DNA of 64,000 nucleotides. Source: an uncultured archaeon. Lineage in GTDB: Archaea > Asgardarchaeota > Thorarchaeia > Thorarchaeales > Thorarchaeaceae. A program made the position numbers and the translations under genes. The notes beneath the pieces are model-generated. The model was not told where the DNA came from and did no database searches. It saw only the letters and a program-made list of their open reading frames with translations. Below are positions 30,304 to 49,573 of the stretch, in pieces; the stretch's first letter is position 1; every line of letters starts with the position of its first letter. The stretch is taken from the NCBI GenBank assembly GCA_964631415.1, contig CAZVZC010000001.1, forward strand, positions 119,042 to 183,041, written 5' to 3'.

Positions 30304-30390
30304 CGACTCCAGAAACTCGACCGCATCGTTTGCGACTGGGCCAGCCCAGAGGCGACAAGTCGCTGAGAACCTCGTCTGCGGTGACAAGTC

Positions 30391-33348
30391 TTGAGCCTGC
30401 TCCATACAAGAATAGTGCCTCTTGCTCTTTTCATGCTGCTCTTCACAAGCAGTCTGGCGGTACTTGCTCCATCGGTGATGACGCCGGTACTGAGAACGCC
30501 GGTCCAGGACTCACAAGGATACACCGTGGCAGGGTTGGCTTCGAATGCATCTATTCCCTATATGGATTGCCACTATGGTCTTGCGGATGGCATAGTCGAT
30601 CCGAGGGAGTACTCCTACAACTACACAGACCCGGTCAGCGGGATCACAGTCTACCTTGAGCACAACTCTACAGTCCTGTTCGTTGGGCTCACTGCTCACA
30701 CATCAGGCTGGATTGGTCTTGCTTGGATGAACTACACTGAAGGCTTCACTACAGACGGCATCAATGGCAGTGACCTGATTCTTGGCTATGCCCCGGACAC
30801 TCCCCATGAAGTCGTTCAGAGGGTCACAGGTTCAGAGGCTGTCACCGTGCATTACAGACTGTTCCTGAGAAACGGAACGCTACTCCAAGAGGGTAATGTA
30901 CCTGATGACACCTCTACAACAGCAATTCGTGATGAAAGCCTTCTTGATGGCTACAAGCGCCAAGTGTATGGCATGAGGATTGGGGAAACACGGCACTTCA
31001 TGATTCCCGCCGCTGAGGGGTACACGACATCTACCGATTCTCTGTATGGTCAAGACTTGGAATATGTCATAACACTCACCCGGATTGGCACTGATTTCAA
31101 CAACCCCGCCCGGTCAAGCCGCATCACGTACAGTGATTGTCATGGAATCAGCACCTTCCAACACCTCGCTGACGCCAATCGGAGTCAGATACTCGCAGCA
31201 AATGCCAGCGACGATGGCACAACAACGCAGCTTGAATACTTTATCAGAATGAACAGCACCGATACTAACGACATTCCACTGCTGAACGCCACGGATGTCT
31301 GGTATCCTTTCGCATTCATGTTCGGTGCAACAGAGGACTTCAACACTCTTCCTGTTCAGCATAGCGACTGGTCGAGCCCTCTTCTAGTCAAGCTGATGCC
31401 CAATGAGGCACCCACAATCGTTGTCAAGAGCCCTGGGGAAGACGAGCCCGTTGCATGGGTGACCAATGTCAAGGTCAATGCAACGGACAACACTTTTGTC
31501 AGGCGTGTTTTCTATCGCATAGACGATGAAAACTGGACAGAACTAGACTATAACTTCCAGACGCTTCTGTGGGAGTCCATCCTTGACCTCTCTAAGTATG
31601 AGAATGGCACACATGTATTCCGTTTCAATGGGACTGACCCATCAAACGTGACCACCGTCATCTCGACGAACGTGACAATCAGCCGACCCTACGTTCCGTT
31701 ACTGGGAATGAGACTTAGTGTAACAAGGACAGTGACCACACTTCTGTTTCACGGCACACAGGTGACAGACGAGTTCACAGTCCGGAACAACGGCTCGGCC
31801 CCGATTGGAGCCATCGAGCTGTTCCTGCCGCAACCTTTCACCTCGCATTTCCTCTCATTGACAGCAGAGGACGGCTCGGCGAAACAACTCAGGGTCGTGC
31901 AACTTGATGATGTCGGAGGCATGATGCACTGGAGAGTCCACTTCGCTGAAACCGTTGGCTTTCAGGAGTCTTACGTCGTGAAGATGGTGATGTTCCTTCA
32001 CTCATTGCACACTCTGACCAACTTCGATTCAAACCTCTACGAACTCAGGTTTCTGAAGTATCCAGTTGTCCCTTATGTCCTCAGCTCCGCATCGCTCAGC
32101 ATGGGTCTTAGGAGTGGCGACACCGCTCAAGGGGTGTCACCAGAGGGCAGAGCCAGCAATCTTCCACCAATGAAGATCGAGGAGTTCACGCTCCCGCTGA
32201 AGTCATACACGCCGCTGATAGTGGCGACGCGTGTCACTACAGTGACTGTAGACCCTTGGGGTTGGTTGACATATCACGAAACGATTTCGATTGAGAACAT
32301 AGGACCTGCGAAGGAGAGCACTTTTGCGTTCACGTTCCCAACGTACTCGACGGACATCAAGGTCTATGATGAGGTGGGAATACTACAGAAGTCACAGAAG
32401 ACTATAGAGGGCGACCTGTGGAACCAAACGATCCGATTGGACGTCAATCTGAATGAGCGTTTTGGGGAAGTCCAGTCATTCTGGCCCGGCTTTCGCTACA
32501 CATTCCAGATAGACTACAAGGTCTTGGCCTCTAGTCACCAGAGCCCGGCCAGCGGAGCGAGTCTTCTGACGATTCCGATGGGCACATTGGGATATATGAC
32601 AGTCACGACGCATACTGTTGATGTGGTCCTACCTGCCTCAGTCTATGTCTTGGAGGTGTCTAAAAGCTACAGACTTCTATACGGCGTCTTTGATGACACG
32701 CTGAGATTCGTGAGCACGAACACAACTGAGAATAACCCACCGACCGTTACGTTACTCTATCGCACCTCCCTGTGGGTCGCGATGAGGCCTCTTGCCTTCT
32801 CACTCATCTTCGGACTCTTTGCTTTCGCCTACGTTGCGTACAGGAAACTTAAGCTACCCGCGGCGATGGTCACGATCGCAACTTCAGAGGAAATAGCTGC
32901 AGAGGCCCAGCAGACTGGTGCACCTCCCGAGCTTCTCAGAAGGTTTGCGAGCACCTATTCGAAGAAGACCTCACTGGATCTTGACTTGGAGAATCTGGAG
33001 GCAGCATTGAAGCGAGGAAAAGTGAAGAAGAGAGAATTCACGATTCGCGAGGGCGACATAAAGACTCAGCTTGAAAAGATTGACAAAGAGCTAAGTGGTC
33101 TCAAGGATGAGGTTATGTCCCATGGACCCAAGTATAGGGACATGGTCGCACAGCTTGAGCTGCACGAAGAGCGAATTGCTGGTGCAAAGGCCGGTCTCAA
33201 TCAGCTACTTATCCGGAAGAAGAAGCAGAGAATCAGTGCCGGGGCCTTCGAGAAGACGCGCCAGGACTATCTCAAGGCTATCAAGAAGGCGATAGCTGCC
33301 ACAGACCGCATCCTCCTGTCAATCGAAGAAGAAGCTGGAGAGTTCTGA
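30391..33348 (+). CDS. Ribophorin I (Ost1)-like type I membrane protein with N-terminal DOMON[FKBP insert]-Ig module and cytoplasmic coiled coil
   Basis: Signal peptide; DOMON halves; FKBP-like aa ~145-233; Ig-like aa ~338-430; ribophorin-like VDPWGWLTYHETISIENIG, VYDEVG, VVLP, RPL+TM; helical tail. Confidence 0.75.
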   Translation: MSLLHTRIVPLALFMLLFTSSLAVLAPSVMTPVLRTPVQDSQGYTVAGLASNASIPYMDCHYGLADGIVDPREYSYNYTDPVSGITVYLEHNSTVLFVGLTAHTSGWIGLAWMNYTEGFTTDGINGSDLILGYAPDTPHEVVQRVTGSEAVTVHYRLFLRNGTLLQEGNVPDDTSTTAIRDESLLDGYKRQVYGMRIGETRHFMIPAAEGYTTSTDSLYGQDLEYVITLTRIGTDFNNPARSSRITYSDCHGISTFQHLADANRSQILAANASDDGTTTQLEYFIRMNSTDTNDIPLLNATDVWYPFAFMFGATEDFNTLPVQHSDWSSPLLVKLMPNEAPTIVVKSPGEDEPVAWVTNVKVNATDNTFVRRVFYRIDDENWTELDYNFQTLLWESILDLSKYENGTHVFRFNGTDPSNVTTVISTNVTISRPYVPLLGMRLSVTRTVTTLLFHGTQVTDEFTVRNNGSAPIGAIELFLPQPFTSHFLSLTAEDGSAKQLRVVQLDDVGGMMHWRVHFAETVGFQESYVVKMVMFLHSLHTLTNFDSNLYELRFLKYPVVPYVLSSASLSMGLRSGDTAQGVSPEGRASNLPPMKIEEFTLPLKSYTPLIVATRVTTVTVDPWGWLTYHETISIENIGPAKESTFAFTFPTYSTDIKVYDEVGILQKSQKTIEGDLWNQTIRLDVNLNERFGEVQSFWPGFRYTFQIDYKVLASSHQSPASGASLLTIPMGTLGYMTVTTHTVDVVLPASVYVLEVSKSYRLLYGVFDDTLRFVSTNTTENNPPTVTLLYRTSLWVAMRPLAFSLIFGLFAFAYVAYRKLKLPAAMVTIATSEEIAAEAQQTGAPPELLRRFASTYSKKTSLDLDLENLEAALKRGKVKKREFTIREGDIKTQLEKIDKELSGLKDEVMSHGPKYRDMVAQLELHEERIAGAKAGLNQLLIRKKKQRISAGAFEKTRQDYLKAIKKAIAATDRILLSIEEEAGEF

Positions 33349-33380: not shown

Positions 33381-34274
33381 ATGAAGAGGACAAGAGATGC
33401 CCTAATGGGGGATGCCGTTATGGCCAGAAGTACACCCTTTGACAGAGAGAAAGTCAGCGTGCGCAAGACTTTGGGTTCGGGCACCAAGTCCCTAGAGATG
33501 TATCAATACTTGAGCAGATCCCCGAAGGTCCAGTCTTATCTTCGCAGTGCCAACCGTATGGCAGTGTCCCGGCTGGGATACACAGACCATGGTCCGGTTC
33601 ATGCTGAGGTGGCCACGTGGAATGCACTCACAGCCTTTGATATCCTTGTTCAGACATTCCGCCCCAATGTTGTTGCAGAGGGGATTGGTGACACGGATGA
33701 CGCACGCATGGTCGTGCTGGCATCCACTTATCTACATGACATAGGCATGGTCGTTCACCGCAATGAGCATCCCCAAGCCGCAGTTCCTCTTGCCAGTGTG
33801 ATTCTAGATGAGAAGCTCGCAGAGCTCTATGAGGATCCCGGAAAGGCGACGGACATTCTGTCATTCATGCTCCATGGAATATACGCACACGATGATGACA
33901 CACAGTGTCTGACTTTCGAAGCCGGTGTCACCAAGCTGGGTGACGGTTGTGACATGACAAAGGGTAGGACTACCATTCCATTTCAGAAAGGCAAGGTGGA
34001 CATCCATTCACTGAGCGCCATGGCAATAAACGACGTCATACTTGAGCGTGGTACTGAGAAGCCTCTTCAGATAACGGTCGATATGGACAATCCAGCCGGC
34101 GTATTCCAAGTCCAAGCCGTTCTTGAAAAGAAGATATCAACGTCGGGACTGAGTGACTATGTTTCTATAGAGGCTCTGGTGAACGGTGACCGATTGGTCT
34201 TGTCTCAAGTCAAGAGGCTCTTCAGAGTTGAGATGGCAGACTCTCCGCCTTCAATAAGCGTCAAAGAGAAATGA
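33381..34274 (+). CDS. HD-domain phosphohydrolase
   Basis: RLGYTDHGPVH, YLHDIG, HD, DGCDM, DIHSLSA. Confidence 0.85.
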   Translation: MKRTRDALMGDAVMARSTPFDREKVSVRKTLGSGTKSLEMYQYLSRSPKVQSYLRSANRMAVSRLGYTDHGPVHAEVATWNALTAFDILVQTFRPNVVAEGIGDTDDARMVVLASTYLHDIGMVVHRNEHPQAAVPLASVILDEKLAELYEDPGKATDILSFMLHGIYAHDDDTQCLTFEAGVTKLGDGCDMTKGRTTIPFQKGKVDIHSLSAMAINDVILERGTEKPLQITVDMDNPAGVFQVQAVLEKKISTSGLSDYVSIEALVNGDRLVLSQVKRLFRVEMADSPPSISVKEK

Positions 34275-34419: not shown

Positions 34420-34740
34420 TCAGGTTTCGGATGTGAGGCCAAAGGGCACTCCATTCTTGAGTATGTCGACAGGGATGCGGTCCTTCCACCTCTCCAGAAA
34501 GGCGTTCTCCTCTTTCCTCTGTCGTCCATCCAGTCTCAAGTCATCCGGCAGCATACAGGGGATTCCCTCAATGACCGGATACCATCGGCCGCATTTGGGG
34601 CATGTGATCAGCGCCTCATCGATTTCCTCCACTGCCTTTTCCTCTGCCTCCACACTGTGTGCTTCATATACTTCAAGATGGAGTTCGTTCCTGCAGTCAC
34701 TACGAGGACAGACCAAGATTTCCATCAGCCAGCGCTTCAT
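34420..34740 (-). CDS. trm112: Trm112 family methyltransferase activator
   Basis: MKRWLMEILVCP...CPKCGRWYPVIEGIPCML. Confidence 0.9.
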   Translation of the reverse strand: MKRWLMEILVCPRSDCRNELHLEVYEAHSVEAEEKAVEEIDEALITCPKCGRWYPVIEGIPCMLPDDLRLDGRQRKEENAFLERWKDRIPVDILKNGVPFGLTSET

Positions 34741-46032: not shown

Positions 46033-46689
46033 TTACTCGCTTATCTGGACGGGCGGGCCCATCGTTGTCTTGACAAGCACACTGCTCACCTTGCCCGCAT
46101 GCCCTTTGCTCTCGACGAAGCGGAGCACAGCGGCTATGTTTTCCGCTATCTCCTTATCACTCATCTTGATGTGACCGACCTTCACGTGGAAGGTGGGCGT
46201 GTTCTTCATCCTCACTCGCACAGTCCGACGATACTGGCCGACCACCGCTTTCAGGTCTGCCTGTGGAGGGTATGGTTTCGGCATCTTGCCCCTAGTACCC
46301 AAGGCTTGGCCTAGATAGCGGCCCACTAGCGGCATCGTGTCAGTCGATGCAATGAAGAAGTCATAGGTCTTGGCCAGCGACCTCTTAGTGGCCTTTGCCT
46401 CACCCATCTTTGGGATTTCGTCCTTTGAAACTACTCGCTCGGCGCCTGCAGCAGAGGCTTTCTCTGCAAACTCACCTTCGCCAAATGCACAGACCTTGGC
46501 AGGGGGGTACAGAGTATAAGGTATCGTGACCTCCTGATTCAGCCTGTTCTCAGGCTTTGAGGTGTCCATCTCCTTTCTCCTGAAGTTCACTGCAATGTCA
46601 AAGCTCTGCTCGAACTTGACGCCCTTCTCCATGCCTTTAGCTCTAGCCTCAGCCACAGCCGCCTCGATTCTCTCAGTGCTGAATGACAT
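46033..46689 (-). CDS. rpl1: Ribosomal protein uL1
   Basis: FEQSFD, LGTRGKMPKP, KTTMGPP. Confidence 0.96.
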   Translation of the reverse strand: MSFSTERIEAAVAEARAKGMEKGVKFEQSFDIAVNFRRKEMDTSKPENRLNQEVTIPYTLYPPAKVCAFGEGEFAEKASAAGAERVVSKDEIPKMGEAKATKRSLAKTYDFFIASTDTMPLVGRYLGQALGTRGKMPKPYPPQADLKAVVGQYRRTVRVRMKNTPTFHVKVGHIKMSDKEIAENIAAVLRFVESKGHAGKVSSVLVKTTMGPPVQISE

Positions 46690-46692
46690 CTC

Positions 46693-47205
46693 TCACCCCT
46701 CCCTTAAGGGCACATTGAGCTGGTTGTCCCACTTGCCATCTCTGATCTCTTGTTGGAACTCCTTGGCGGGCTTGCCCTCGATGGTCACGCCCATCGATAC
46801 GCACGTACCCGTAATTATCATTGCAGCCGACTTCATTGTCAGTGCAGTCAACTCTCCGGCCTTCATCTTGGCAATGGACTTGATTTGATCAATCGAAAGA
46901 TTGCCAACGATCTGAGTCTTCGGCGTTGCAGACCCCTTCGGAGCGCCTATTTCCTTGAGAATCAGTGCGCTTGTTGGAGGGATACCCACCTGCACCTCAA
47001 AGGTCTTGGTGACCGCATCCACGATTATTGTCACAGGCACCTTCAGCCCGGCAAAGGGCTGTGTGACTTCGTTAATCTTCTGTACTACTTGAAACACGTT
47101 CACACCAGTTGGTCCTAGGGCTGGTCCGATTGGTGGCCCTCCCGAGGCCTTACCGCCTTCGACCATAGTGGACACTTTGGTCTTCTGTTCACTCAAATGA
47201 ATCAC
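46693..47205 (-). CDS. rpl11: Ribosomal protein uL11
   Basis: GGKASGGPPIGPALG, PPTSAL, GTCVSMG; start uncertain. Confidence 0.96.
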   Translation of the reverse strand: MIHLSEQKTKVSTMVEGGKASGGPPIGPALGPTGVNVFQVVQKINEVTQPFAGLKVPVTIIVDAVTKTFEVQVGIPPTSALILKEIGAPKGSATPKTQIVGNLSIDQIKSIAKMKAGELTALTMKSAAMIITGTCVSMGVTIEGKPAKEFQQEIRDGKWDNQLNVPLREG

Positions 47206-47460
47206 AACTCCTGATGCAGTGCAACTGATGCATCAATGACGCGTCAGCAAGGTCGACCCGCCAGACACAAGAAGAAGGACATCCAGCAAAGTCTACTGCA
47301 TTCTCAGTCATCTGTTATCACCCCTGACACGACGTCAATGCGTCTGTGTCCGATTAAGGAGTAAGGCTCTCGACCCAACAGTCCGTTTTTAAGGCTTGCG
47401 ACCAAGCCCCAAGTGAAAGTAGCTGAGTGCACGGAACAACAGTTGATGCGGACTAGGCTC

Positions 47461-48126
47461 TCAATGAGACCAGAATGAGTCCTCTTCCTCCTCAGGACTC
47501 GGAGTTTCAGCCTCCTCCTTCTCCTCTTTCTTCTCGGCAGCCTTCCCTTTCTCCACAATCTTGGCGAAATCGGCATGAACTCGCAAGGGGATGGTGTGTG
47601 GGCTGTCGAGCAGCTCGAGTATGAGTTCCTCCTTGGAAGTGTCCACTCTTGACACTCTGGCTCTTTCACCCTTGAATGGACCCGATATGATCTCGACAAC
47701 ATCACCTGTCGATATGCCTTCGGCCGCAGGTGGTGGGACAAGGAATTTGTCGATTTCTTCCAGACTCACTTTTCCACTAACACGACCCCGCACATGTGGC
47801 ACACCAGAAATGGCAATCTCGACATCCCTGAATTCAGTGGTTTCGAGAAACACATAACCACGGAGAGTTTCCGGGACTAGTATCGCCATGACCCTGCCAA
47901 GAAGCTGATTCTTCGACACCAGCTTTGGCTCGCCTTTCTTCTTACCTGCCTTCTTGCATTCTTTCATATGCTTGGTAGTGCTCTGTTCCGACGAGAACTG
48001 CTCACCACAGAACGGGCACTCCCACAGATCGGTTTCTCCCGTAACAGCAGTCGTAATCAGGTCTGCGACTGATCTCTCTTGGCTTATCGTTGTTCTTATG
48101 GCATAGATGCTGGTCTTCGCCTGCAA
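47461..48126 (-). CDS. spt5: Transcription elongation factor Spt5/NusG with inserted C2HC zinc finger
   Basis: NGN (YAIRTT..QE, LRGYVFLE), KOW (GDVVEIISGPFKGE), and position between secE and rpl11. Confidence 0.93.
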   Translation of the reverse strand: MQAKTSIYAIRTTISQERSVADLITTAVTGETDLWECPFCGEQFSSEQSTTKHMKECKKAGKKKGEPKLVSKNQLLGRVMAILVPETLRGYVFLETTEFRDVEIAISGVPHVRGRVSGKVSLEEIDKFLVPPPAAEGISTGDVVEIISGPFKGERARVSRVDTSKEELILELLDSPHTIPLRVHADFAKIVEKGKAAEKKEEKEEAETPSPEEEEDSFWSH

Positions 48127-48165
48127 GTGGAACCCTCCGTTGTTGGTCTTGGTCGGGACTGCCCT

Positions 48166-48348
48166 CTACTGTCCCAACCACCCCGACGTCAGGGTTGTCA
48201 TCAGGACCTGCACTATGAAGCTGAGTAGTCCGACAAGTACCATTGCGAGCAGACTTATCTTTGTACTTGACCACATCTCACCTCTTGTTGGTTTCGTGGC
48301 AAGTTTCAAGATACGCCTGCTATCTCTGAGAAATTCTCCAACACCCAT
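48166..48348 (-). CDS. secE: Preprotein translocase SecE/Sec61-gamma
   Basis: RILKLATKPT.EMW plus TM; conserved synteny. Confidence 0.92.
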   Translation of the reverse strand: MGVGEFLRDSRRILKLATKPTRGEMWSSTKISLLAMVLVGLLSFIVQVLMTTLTSGWLGQ

Positions 48349-48442
48349 TGCTGTCGCACATCCTAGGGTGCTCTGTATCACCGGAAACAGCAGCAGTCAC
48401 CTGTGGTGCTCTTTTAACCCTTGCTGAGTGCCCAACCACATA

Positions 48443-49573
48443 CTAACCAAGTCGTGAGAGTCCGAGGTCTCTCTTCAGGTCATCTGCGAGGGAAGTGCTT
48501 CGTGTTGAGTCGGAGTCGAATATGTACGGTGAGTTCACACCCGAGGCGATTATTGTCACCCTGATTCGGTCCTCAAGCTCTGGCATGATTATCGCTCCAT
48601 AGATGATCTCAGCACCTGGGTTTACCTGCTCAGTCACAAGCTCCACAACCCGCTTTGCCTCTCTGAGCTGGAGATCAGTACTGCCGCTGACGTTGATGAG
48701 CAGGTGGTGTGCGTTCTCTATTGAGATATCGATGAGTGGATTCCGTAGTGCGTTGTTAACAGCTTCTTCTGCTCTATTCTCGCCTTGACCCTCTCCCAAA
48801 GCGATTATGGACACACCACCATTCTTCATAGTAGTACGAACATCGGCGAAGTCCAAGTTGACGAGCCCAGGCCGTGATATGAGTTCAGCGATGCCCTTGA
48901 CAGCGCGCACTAACACTTCGTCAGCGACCATGAAGGCTTCGGGCATAGAGAGGTCTGGAGCAATCTCAAGAAGCTTCTCGTTCGGAATCGCTATCAGAGT
49001 GTCCACGTGTTCCATCAGCGCCCTGAGACCCCTCATGGCATTCTTCTTCCTAGTCGCGCCCTCCACTTCGAACGGTAGACAGACTATCGCCACTGTCAGT
49101 GCTCCATTCTCTTTAGCGGCTCTGGCAACATGTGCGGCGGCACCGGTGCCAGTACCACCACCCATGCCTGCTGTAATGAACACAAGGTCCGCTTTCACGG
49201 CATCTTTGATTTGGTCATAGGTTTCGAGAGCTGCCTTCTCACCGACATCCGGATTGTTGCCTGCTCCAAGACCTCCACAGGTTTCTCTGCCAAGCAACAG
49301 CTTGTGATGTGAATTGCAGTAGTACAGGTCTTGGGCATCTGTATTGATTGCAAGGGTTTCTGCCCCTTCGACACCGACTTCCATCAGACGTGTTACGGCG
49401 TTGTTTCCCGCGCCCCCAATGCCCACAACGAGTATCTTGGCGGTCACAGACTCTAGAATGGCGGCTAGTTCATCATCTGTAATGGCCCCTTTTGTGACCC
49501 GCTTGGATGTCTTCGGCTGCGCCTCACGTCTTGAAGTGGATCCGCTTAGTGCTTCCTCTAGCAATGGATGCAA
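48443..49573 (-). CDS. ftsZ: Cell division GTPase FtsZ (FtsZ1-type context)
   Basis: GGAGNN, GMGGGTGTG, NLDFAD. Confidence 0.97.
   Translation of the reverse strand: MHPLLEEALSGSTSRREAQPKTSKRVTKGAITDDELAAILESVTAKILVVGIGGAGNNAVTRLMEVGVEGAETLAINTDAQDLYYCNSHHKLLLGRETCGGLGAGNNPDVGEKAALETYDQIKDAVKADLVFITAGMGGGTGTGAAAHVARAAKENGALTVAIVCLPFEVEGATRKKNAMRGLRALMEHVDTLIAIPNEKLLEIAPDLSMPEAFMVADEVLVRAVKGIAELISRPGLVNLDFADVRTTMKNGGVSIIALGEGQGENRAEEAVNNALRNPLIDISIENAHHLLINVSGSTDLQLREAKRVVELVTEQVNPGAEIIYGAIIMPELEDRIRVTIIASGVNSPYIFDSDSTRSTSLADDLKRDLGLSRLG

What the first reader, a model, noticed from the sequence alone, without database searches (positions are those of the whole stretch)
30391..33348. Ribophorin I/Ost1 homologue fused to a DOMON domain with a nested FKBP domain: candidate glycosylation-coupled folding module
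Seen, N- to C-terminal: signal peptide; DOMON N-half (VGLTAHTSGWIGLAW...NGSDLILGY); FKBP-like insert aa ~145-233 (VTVHYRLFLRNGT...LLDGY...GMRIGETRHFMIPAAEGY...LYGQDLEYVITL); DOMON C-half (DDGTTTQLEY...DTND...FMFG...QH); Ig-like domain; ribophorin-like luminal region (VTVDPWGWLTYHETISIENIG vs eukaryotic IEVSHWGNIAVEE; VYDEVG vs YRDxIG; VVLP; RPL before the TM vs EPL); one TM at ~aa 800-817; about 165-aa cytoplasmic helical tail. There are about 19 N-x-S/T sequons, mostly in the N-terminal module. The FKBP keeps Tyr26/Tyr82 equivalents but Asp37 appears replaced, and the DOMON heme-ligand Met appears to be Ile. Known: ribophorin I is a non-catalytic OST subunit that presents substrates, and homologues are reported in Asgard archaea; eukaryotic ones lack these domains. 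Inference: an archaeal OST accessory subunit carrying its own prolyl isomerase/chaperone and a possible sugar-binding DOMON, analogous to ER glycoprotein quality control. I know of no description of this fusion but could not search.
Basis: partly seen in the sequence, partly recalled or inferred. Interest (0 to 1): 0.85.

Follow-up and report, generated by a model that had tools for sequence, protein, structure and literature searches.

The report
Thorarchaeal ribophorin I with built-in FKBP
This Asgard archaeal gene is the only copy found of ribophorin I, a helper subunit of the protein-glycosylating machine shared with eukaryotes; throughout the Thorarchaeota it carries an extra outward-facing folding-helper (FKBP) domain set inside a DOMON domain, which suggests folding help built in where secreted proteins emerge.

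Summary
Observation confirmed. The 985-aa ORF (30391-33348, +) is Thorarchaeota OST1/ribophorin I. Residues 437-985 match human RPN1 by profile (E 1e-27) and fold (E 8e-30), and the tail matches the ribosome-binding domain of MK-D1 OST1 (8WHN). It is the only copy found here; OST1 is essentially single-copy across Asgard (88 of 89 good genomes). Only the Thor order has the long form: a DOMON sandwich with an FKBP inserted in a hairpin, then an Ig domain. The FKBP is under purifying selection (dN/dS 0.10) and keeps the Tyr26, Ile56, Trp59, Tyr82 and Phe99 positions. Asp37 is Gln/Glu and there is no SlyD chaperone insert, so activity is plausible but unproven. The DOMON lost the heme-ligand Met (0 of 119); sugar binding is untested. 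Thor AglB carries its own DOMON-like tail with the same Thor-only spread. The insert tentatively groups with exported membrane-anchored Heimdallarchaeota FKBPs. Best reading: a tethered prolyl isomerase or peptide-binding module at the translocon/OST exit, like human FKBP11 (about 50%); an adaptor role is the main rival. I found no paper on it. This scan found the fusion and the AglB tail before, on other genomes.

The parts
30380..30384 (+). GGTGA Shine-Dalgarno-like motif before the TTG start
   Evidence: present before the start in 23 of 24 orthologues
30391..33348 (+). whole gene: 985-aa Thorarchaeota OST1/ribophorin I with N-terminal DOMON[FKBP]-Ig module
30391..30468 (+). signal peptide (aa 1 to about 26; cleavage after Ala23 or Ala26 inferred by eye, no SignalP available)
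   Evidence: hydropathy; similar N-termini in orthologues
30538..30819 (+). DOMON N-half (aa 50-143): invariant D66-G67-x-x-D70-x-x-E73-Y74; Ile124 in place of the heme-ligand Met; conserved D59-x-H61-Y62-G63 not seen in stand-alone relatives
30820..31089 (+). FKBP domain (aa 144-233) inserted at a DOMON beta-hairpin; no insert-in-flap domain
   Evidence: Pfam FKBP_C over cut-off; VIA Z 12.3, rmsd 1.8 over 86 residues to SlyD 3CGM; residue counts; dN/dS 0.097
31108..31404 (+). DOMON C-half (aa 240-338), with His324 at the heme-ligand His position (His in 100 of 119, Arg in 18)
31405..31698 (+). Ig-like linker domain (aa 339-436)
   Evidence: Big_7; VIA Z 14.0, rmsd 1.6 over 90 residues
31699..32769 (+). 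two ribophorin I luminal beta-sandwich lobes (aa 437-793)
   Evidence: profile hit to human RPN1 E 1e-27; Foldseek top eight hits all RPN1/Ost1, E 8e-30 to 1e-18
32773..32850 (+). single transmembrane helix (aa 795-820) after R799-P800
32917..33345 (+). cytoplasmic four-helix bundle (aa 843-985), homologous to the ribosome-binding domain of MK-D1 OST1; most conserved part
   Evidence: 8WHN E 1.8e-5 by single sequence, 3.5e-26 by profile; 70% mean identity, dN/dS 0.057; PMC11417166
29142..30179 (-). head-to-head neighbour: Glycos_transf_4 (Alg7/AglH/MraY-type) HexNAc-1-phosphate transferase
   Evidence: Pfam E 1.8e-29; adjacent in 29 of 32 Thor loci, the other three cut by contig ends; within about 6 kb of OST1 in 5 of 11 non-Thor Asgard loci
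33381..34274 (+). downstream HD-domain-like gene (weak Pfam HD hit, E 0.16); conserved neighbour in Thor, no known link to OST

Best explanation
The protein is the Thorarchaeota OST1 subunit. It is a type I membrane protein. Its cytoplasmic four-helix bundle docks the ribosome, and its two luminal lobes sit on AglB next to the SecY/Sec61 exit (inferred from homology to MK-D1 OST1 and eukaryotic RPN1). In the ancestor of the Thor order it gained an exported head: a DOMON sandwich that lost its heme ligand and now serves as a rigid, glycosylated scaffold, carrying an FKBP on one hairpin and held out by an Ig domain. The FKBP binds X-Pro segments of nascent secreted or surface proteins as they emerge, isomerising or briefly holding them, so that folding is timed with N-glycosylation. 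Shown here: architecture, orthology, distribution, purifying selection, pocket residues, loss of the Met. Inferred: membership of the OST complex, ribosome binding by this orthologue, catalysis, and client binding.
For: OST1 identity. One copy per genome, long form only in Thor families f1 and f2 (58 of 59 and 1 of 1), while other listed Asgard frames are 712 codons or shorter. The head is found in 73 of 76 f1 genomes plus f2, and the full head was not found elsewhere among 301 Asgard genomes; two of the three misses also lack the neighbouring transferase and the third is cut at a contig end. FKBP pocket in 119 orthologues (numbering through the FKBP2 alignment): Y155 (Tyr26) 119, L157 119, L185 (Ile56) 119, Y188 (Trp59) 118, Y211 (Tyr82) 119, L223 119, Y225 (Phe99) Tyr 115 / Phe 4, H216 83. 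In TtSlyD the Asp37-equivalent D23A keeps 78% activity, whereas Y63A keeps 21% and F128A 30-40% (PMC5034536), so the positions that matter most are kept. The deepest Thor orthologue keeps Phe-Asp and Phe99. FKBP dN/dS 0.097 against 0.133 for the ribophorin lobes. It is the only exported PPIase found in this 85%-complete genome: the other FKBP has no signal peptide, and no parvulin or cyclophilin was found. Heimdallarchaeota encode separate signal-peptide/FKBP/TM proteins that tentatively group with the insert. Human FKBP11 is recruited to OST-A translocons making long luminal segments (PMC12804085).
Against: No activity data. Asp37 is Gln (94) or Glu (23) and Phe36 is mostly Ile/Leu/Val. The conserved aromatics also form the FKBP core, so their conservation may reflect the fold alone. 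There is no insert-in-flap domain, whose loss lowers SlyD affinity and activity. In the one structure of an FKBP at a translocon, the FKBP11 site is buried by CCDC134 and the authors argue against nascent-chain isomerisation. Stand-alone DOMON[FKBP]-Ig-TM paralogues exist in some Thor genomes, so the module can work away from OST1. I had no coordinates to check whether the pocket is open.
Confidence: 0.5

Rival explanations
1. The protein is OST1, but the FKBP is a catalytically weak or dead docking module. Like human FKBP11 with CCDC134, its pocket binds a fixed partner (another translocon factor, or the DOMON-like tail of AglB) and helps assemble or regulate the Thor OST complex.
For: Asp37, Phe36 and Phe99 have drifted in family f1 relative to the deepest orthologue, yet the domain stays under purifying selection. 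FKBP11 precedent. AglB gained a DOMON-like tail with the same spread (42 of 43 f1 genomes, 1 of 1 f2; elsewhere only weak hits to short stand-alone proteins in f14).
Against: The two positions most important for SlyD catalysis are kept as aromatics, and losing the Asp costs little. No partner has been identified.
Confidence: 0.27
2. The important part is the DOMON. The OST1 and AglB DOMON domains are glycan-binding or structural luminal modules that stand in for the Wbp1/Swp1 subunits Thor lacks, or tie the complex to the surface layer. The FKBP is secondary.
For: Both subunits gained DOMON-like domains in the same lineage. No Wbp1/OST48 match over the cut-off in 38 Thor genomes, while two other Asgard genomes have one (agrees with PMC10307638). 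CBM9 is among the fold matches (Z 12.2, rmsd 3.6 over 153 residues). DOMON-N is the most conserved extracellular part (62% identity).
Against: The closest relatives by sequence and fold are heme-type DOMONs, not lectins. Wbp1 is reported absent from most Asgard classes, whose OST1 lacks this head, so a replacement is not generally needed. The FKBP is as constrained as the DOMON (dN/dS 0.097 vs 0.126).
Confidence: 0.15
3. The DOMON still binds heme or another redox cofactor with a changed ligand set (for example His258/His324 or Met310/His324) and gives OST a redox function.
For: Best fold matches are heme-binding DOMON subunits (2IVF_C Z 15.9, 7B04_C Z 15.2). H258 (114 of 119), M310 (104) and H324 (100) are conserved in family f1.
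Against: The canonical Met is Leu/Ile in all 119 orthologues. H324 is Arg in 18. H258 and M310 are not kept in the deepest orthologue or in the paralogues. No redox genes are among the conserved neighbours.
Confidence: 0.05
4. The fusion is an assembly chimera, a read-through, or a decaying accessory paralogue.
For: The window's own protein has no Pfam Ribophorin_I or DOMON hit.
Against: Stop-free full-length frames in dozens of independent assemblies from 17 genera. Only copy found. Purifying selection in every domain.
Confidence: 0.01

Closest known systems
OST1/ribophorin I of 'Ca. Prometheoarchaeum syntrophicum' MK-D1 (607 aa; cytosolic domain PDB 8WHN; Carilo et al. 2024, PMC11417166)
   Same: Signal peptide, luminal lobes, one TM, four-helix cytosolic bundle (profile E 3.5e-26). 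The MK-D1 bundle pulls down human ribosomes.
   Different: MK-D1 OST1 and the other non-Thor Asgard OST1s listed (about 560-710 aa) lack the roughly 390-aa DOMON[FKBP]-Ig head.
Eukaryotic RPN1/Ost1 (human 8B6L_O, 6S7O_E; yeast 6EZN_A)
   Same: Same two-lobe luminal fold, WG motif, proline before the TM.
   Different: About 13% identity; no N-terminal head. Works with Wbp1/Swp1; Wbp1 was not found over the cut-off in the Thor genomes searched.
Human FKBP11 at the secretory translocon (PDB 9N9J, 9YGY; PMC12804085)
   Same: A lumen-facing FKBP tethered at the OST-containing translocon through a TM and a ribosome-binding cytosolic element. Fold match Z 10.8, rmsd 2.2 over 92 residues.
   Different: A separate, dynamically recruited protein whose site is buried by CCDC134. 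It matches the insert profile no better than other FKBPs (E 0.003). I did not test orthology; convergence is more likely.
SlyD and short archaeal FKBPs (TtSlyD 3CGM/4ODP, MjFKBP26 3PRB)
   Same: Best FKBP fold match (Z 12.3); H-x-L-x-G-x-x-L-x-aromatic C-terminal motif; pocket Tyr/Leu residues.
   Different: Cytoplasmic, with an insert-in-flap chaperone domain and Asp37. Here the FKBP is exported, lacks the insert, and is itself inserted in another domain.
Heme-type DOMON domains (ethylbenzene dehydrogenase gamma 2IVF_C, CDH cytochrome 1D7C; archaeal DOMON-Ig-TM proteins beside 4Fe-4S and NrfD genes, P0125/P0126) and the heme-less DOMON of dopamine beta-hydroxylase (4ZEL)
   Same: Same beta-sandwich (Z 12.6-15.9; hhalign 99.9%).
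   Different: Met ligand lost, FKBP inserted, heavy sequon load. DBH is a precedent for a DOMON without heme ligands (PMC4846438).

Membership tests
Ribophorin I / OST1 | Two luminal beta-sandwich lobes homologous to RPN1 | tested here: met
   Profile E 1e-27 to 6S7O_E; Foldseek E 8e-30. Pfam Ribophorin_I hits 6 of 25 orthologues (best E 1.4e-7) but not this protein itself.
Ribophorin I / OST1 | Type I topology: signal peptide, one TM, cytoplasmic helical bundle | tested here: met
   (signal peptide judged by hydropathy only)
Ribophorin I / OST1 | Is the genome's orthologue and co-occurs with AglB/STT3 | tested here: met
   Only copy found; AglB and Ost3/6-like genes on the same contig; neighbours shared with plain Asgard OST1s
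Ribophorin I / OST1 | Physical subunit of the OST complex; tail binds ribosomes | not testable with these tools
   Needs pull-down or cryo-EM; ribosome binding is shown only for the MK-D1 homologue
FKBP-type peptidyl-prolyl isomerase | FKBP fold and Pfam FKBP_C over cut-off | tested here: met
   (24 of 25 members hit)
FKBP-type peptidyl-prolyl isomerase | Active-site set Tyr26, Phe36, Asp37, Phe46, Val55, Ile56, Trp59, Tyr82, Phe99 | tested here: inconclusive
   Tyr26 and Tyr82 invariant; Ile56 is Leu, Trp59 is Tyr, Phe99 is Tyr; Asp37 is Gln/Glu; Phe36 aliphatic; Phe46 region polar
FKBP-type peptidyl-prolyl isomerase | PPIase activity | not testable with these tools
   needs an enzyme assay
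SlyD-type chaperone-PPIase | Insert-in-flap chaperone domain between the Tyr82-equivalent and the His of the H-x-L-x-G motif | tested here: not met
   4 residues between Y211 and H216 against Y63 to H119 in TtSlyD
DOMON superfamily | DOMON beta-sandwich fold and sequence profile | tested here: met
   VIA Z 15.9, rmsd 2.8 over 167 residues; hhalign 99.9%; Atlas rmsd 1.8 over 163 residues to a PF03351 cluster
Heme-binding DOMON | Axial Met plus His ligand pair | tested here: not met
   Met kept in at least 90% and His in all of 19 uninterrupted relatives; Met in 0 of 119 fusion orthologues, His in 100
Sugar-binding DOMON (CBM9-like) | Paired tryptophans stacking on sugar in the concave pocket | tested here: inconclusive
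   W107, W112 and W327 are conserved, but no coordinates were available to place them; CBM9 ranks below heme-type DOMONs

The most novel reading that the evidence does not exclude
Asgard archaea have a family of exported, membrane-tethered FKBPs that act at the translocon/OST exit: fused into OST1 in Thorarchaeota and free-standing (signal peptide, FKBP, TM, cytosolic tail) in Heimdallarchaeota. This would be an archaeal forerunner or parallel of ER FKBP11, with co-translocational folding coupled to N-glycosylation. In Thor, both OST1 and AglB gained DOMON-type heads that form a lineage-specific luminal sub-complex.
Probability: 0.3. Interest if true: 0.8.

Novelty: new variant of a known kind. 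Interest (0 to 1): 0.58.

Why it matters
How secreted proteins fold outside an archaeal membrane is poorly known. A survey of MK-D1 and other Asgard genomes concluded that their homologues of ER chaperones are cytoplasmic (PMC11417166; I did not check whether FKBPs were on its list). A conserved fusion that places an FKBP on a core OST subunit is a natural pointer that prolyl isomerisation or peptide holding belongs at the translocon/OST exit. That matches the recent finding of FKBP11 on human OST-A translocons, whose general role is still open. The soluble 390-aa head models at pLDDT 95 and can be expressed and assayed, so the idea is directly testable. It also corrects databases: NCBI names many of these proteins 'FKBP-type isomerase' or 'Ig-like domain protein', which hides the Thor OST1. 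Limits: it is one order's elaboration of a known subunit, Thor is not the closest Asgard lineage to eukaryotes, and function is untested.

Tried and rejected
Complex prediction of the head (aa 50-436) with the AglB luminal region (aa 512-930): no verdict, score 0.00, controls not folded; not used as evidence either way. Foldseek of the whole head against the PDB gave only Ig-repeat matches and missed DOMON and FKBP; VIA-align found them. Pfam DOMON as a genome query rang nowhere, controls included, so it is uninformative. Atlas feature searches scored under 0.9 and are leads only; the Atlas shape search showed no cluster with the whole head, which does not prove absence. Direct profile comparison of the AglB tail with the OST1 head was weak (42%); the tail matches the uninterrupted DOMON profile instead (96.7%). 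The FKBP tree did not finish its careful search; the quick tree on 130 columns gives only SH-aLRT 90 for insert plus Heimdall exported FKBPs, no eukaryotic FKBPs were included, and the sample was biased by the query, so I claim no donor. The FKBP12 mutagenesis paper was not held. Paper searches for the fusion found nothing relevant; subscription journals are mostly not covered. The sigma-70 promoter scan found nothing and does not suit archaea. Rejected: chimera, a later ATG start, heme-type membership, SlyD-type chaperone membership. I treat the head-to-head transferase as inherited gene order with possible co-regulation, not as proof of function, because the HD and Trm112 neighbours are about as well conserved.
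Full report
The observation. Window 30391-33348 (+) is one 985-codon frame starting at TTG. The start is supported by a GGTGA motif 6 nt upstream and by the same arrangement in 23 of 24 orthologues. Hydropathy gives an N-terminal signal-like stretch and one TM. There are 19 sequons, 16 in the N-terminal head. Across orthologues the DOMON and Ig domains carry three to five times the sequon density of shuffles, and the tail almost none, which fits an exported head and a cytoplasmic tail. Named database relatives are mostly Thorarchaeota.

The C-terminal 550 residues are ribophorin I. A profile of this region hits human RPN1 at E 1e-27 and the MK-D1 OST1 cytosolic domain (8WHN) at 3.5e-26, with nothing else below 0.1. 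The predicted structure (pLDDT 91) has two beta lobes, a TM helix, a disordered linker and four helices, and its top eight Foldseek hits are all RPN1/Ost1 chains. The MK-D1 tail pulls down human ribosomes (PMC11417166); here the tail is the most conserved part. The gene is the only OST1 found in this genome, which also has AglB and an Ost3/6-like gene. OST1 was found in 88 of 89 high-quality Asgard genomes, almost always once; complete Thor frames are about 980-1030 codons and the other listed ones 712 or fewer.

The head. The model of aa 50-436 has pLDDT 95 and pTM 0.89, so the three domains are placed with confidence. VIA-align matches residues 50-338 to DOMON sandwiches (2IVF_C Z 15.9, rmsd 2.8 over 167; DBH Z 13.9; CBM9 Z 12.2), residues 143-234 to FKBPs (SlyD Z 12.3, rmsd 1.8 over 86), and residues 339-433 to Ig domains. 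Profile comparison with uninterrupted DOMON relatives places the insertion between two adjacent strands. The full head occurs in 73 of 76 genomes of this family and in the one genome of the sister family; other Asgard families gave only single-domain matches. The three misses look like assembly gaps. The fusion therefore dates at least to the common ancestor of the two Thor families sampled.

Is the FKBP active? In 119 orthologues the Tyr26, Ile56, Trp59, Tyr82 and Phe99 positions are held as Tyr, Leu, Tyr, Tyr and Tyr with at most four exceptions each, while Asp37 is Gln or Glu and Phe36 is mostly aliphatic. In TtSlyD the Asp mutant keeps 78% activity and the Tyr82- and Phe99-equivalent alanine mutants keep 21% and 30-40% (PMC5034536). 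The changes are therefore compatible with activity but do not show it. The SlyD chaperone insert is absent. Pooled over eight close pairs, dN/dS is 0.097 for the FKBP, 0.126 for the DOMON, 0.133 for the ribophorin lobes and 0.057 for the tail, so the FKBP is not decaying. No other exported PPIase was found in this 85%-complete genome.

What does the DOMON do? Its nearest uninterrupted relatives keep the heme Met and His, and two sit before 4Fe-4S and NrfD genes. The fusion has Leu or Ile at the Met position in all 119 orthologues and Arg at the His position in 18. It is best read as a former cytochrome domain turned scaffold; DBH is a precedent for a DOMON without heme ligands. The invariant D66, D70, E73 cluster may bind a metal ion (inference from my knowledge of CBM9-like domains, not tested). 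Sugar binding could not be tested.

Context. A Glycos_transf_4 gene, the family that makes the first lipid-linked HexNAc, lies head-to-head 211 nt away in every Thor locus with DNA available (29 of 32) and near plain OST1 in 5 of 11 other Asgard loci. This supports orthology; other neighbours are about as well conserved, so it is weak evidence of function. Two further observations bear on mechanism. First, Thor AglB has a C-terminal DOMON-like domain (hhalign 96.7%) with the same Thor-only spread, and no Wbp1 over the cut-off was found in the Thor genomes searched. Second, Heimdallarchaeota have separate exported, membrane-anchored FKBPs that are among the best scorers against the insert profile and fall on the same side of a moderately supported branch (SH-aLRT 90, quick tree).

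Mechanism. The most likely reading (0.5) is that OST1 anchors the complex to the ribosome-translocon and holds an FKBP outside the membrane, where it binds and isomerises X-Pro segments of emerging chains while AglB glycosylates them. The nearest known case is human FKBP11, recruited to OST-A translocons that make long luminal segments (PMC12804085). The same paper supplies the main rival (0.27): there the FKBP site is buried by CCDC134 and acts as an adaptor. A DOMON-centred scaffold or lectin role gets 0.15, a residual redox role 0.05, and an artefact 0.01.

Novelty and score. Each domain is known and Asgard OST1 is published. I found no paper describing the fusion, an FKBP inserted in a DOMON, or the AglB tail, with limited journal coverage. 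Earlier notes of this scan report the fusion and the AglB tail on other genomes. I reached the architecture and the AglB observation before reading them; one note's wording that the tail may stand in for a luminal subunit preceded my Wbp1 search. Verdict: a real, order-wide new variant of a known subunit, with a plausible and testable but unproven folding role. Interest 0.58.

Noticed in passing
L087:8458-11247 (G000:C1, about 46455-49244; outside the window, same contig): AglB/STT3 (930 aa) ends in a domain of about 185 aa that matches the DOMON profile (hhalign 96.7%, E 4.6e-10). It is found in 42 of 43 f1 genomes and the one f2 genome; in 25 other Asgard families this query gave only three weak hits to short stand-alone proteins in f14. 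No structure was predicted for it alone.
   Followed up: partly
L045:4510-5136, L089:79-705, L090:4356-4991, L092:3435-4076, L094, L098, L099, L101: Heimdallarchaeota (family f14) encode 210-220-aa proteins with signal peptide, FKBP, TM and a cytosolic Cys-rich zinc-finger-like tail. They share the flap motif of the Thor insert, and some also lack Asp37. Their topology resembles FKBP11.
   Followed up: partly
L032:4130-5887 and L033:4534-6318 (also P0131, P0132): Stand-alone paralogues of the head (DOMON[FKBP]-Ig-Ig-TM, 570-600 aa, no ribophorin part) in a few Thor genomes that also have the fusion; the two placed in the FKBP tree nest among the fused inserts.
   Followed up: partly
L043:2457-5973 and L044:3890-7226 (genome G060): Uninterrupted DOMON-Ig-TM proteins with Met and His heme ligands lie directly before 4Fe-4S dicluster and NrfD genes, a likely membrane redox module and the nearest relatives of the fused DOMON.
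   Followed up: partly
L054 (G000:C1:42188-42502): Ost3/6-like match about 4 kb upstream of aglB on the same contig.
   Followed up: no
window:33381-37856: HD-like gene, Trm112-like gene (34420-34740, minus) and two genes that read as glycine-cleavage P subunits follow the fusion. Trm112 or GcvP also neighbour plain OST1 in several other Asgard classes.
   Followed up: partly
window:24736-29145: By eye: eIF1A-like, Rio kinase, KH-domain (Dim2-like), and topoisomerase VI B and A genes lie upstream of the transferase; the same order is seen in L031, L047 and L048.
   Followed up: no
window:39837-40223: Sequence looked tRNA-like by eye, but ARAGORN found no tRNA in 20000-45000.
   Followed up: partly
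literature: PMC11284389 states that Ost1 is absent from P. syntrophicum, whereas PMC11417166 solved the cytosolic domain of its OST1. Divergent Asgard OST1s are easy to miss.
   Followed up: no
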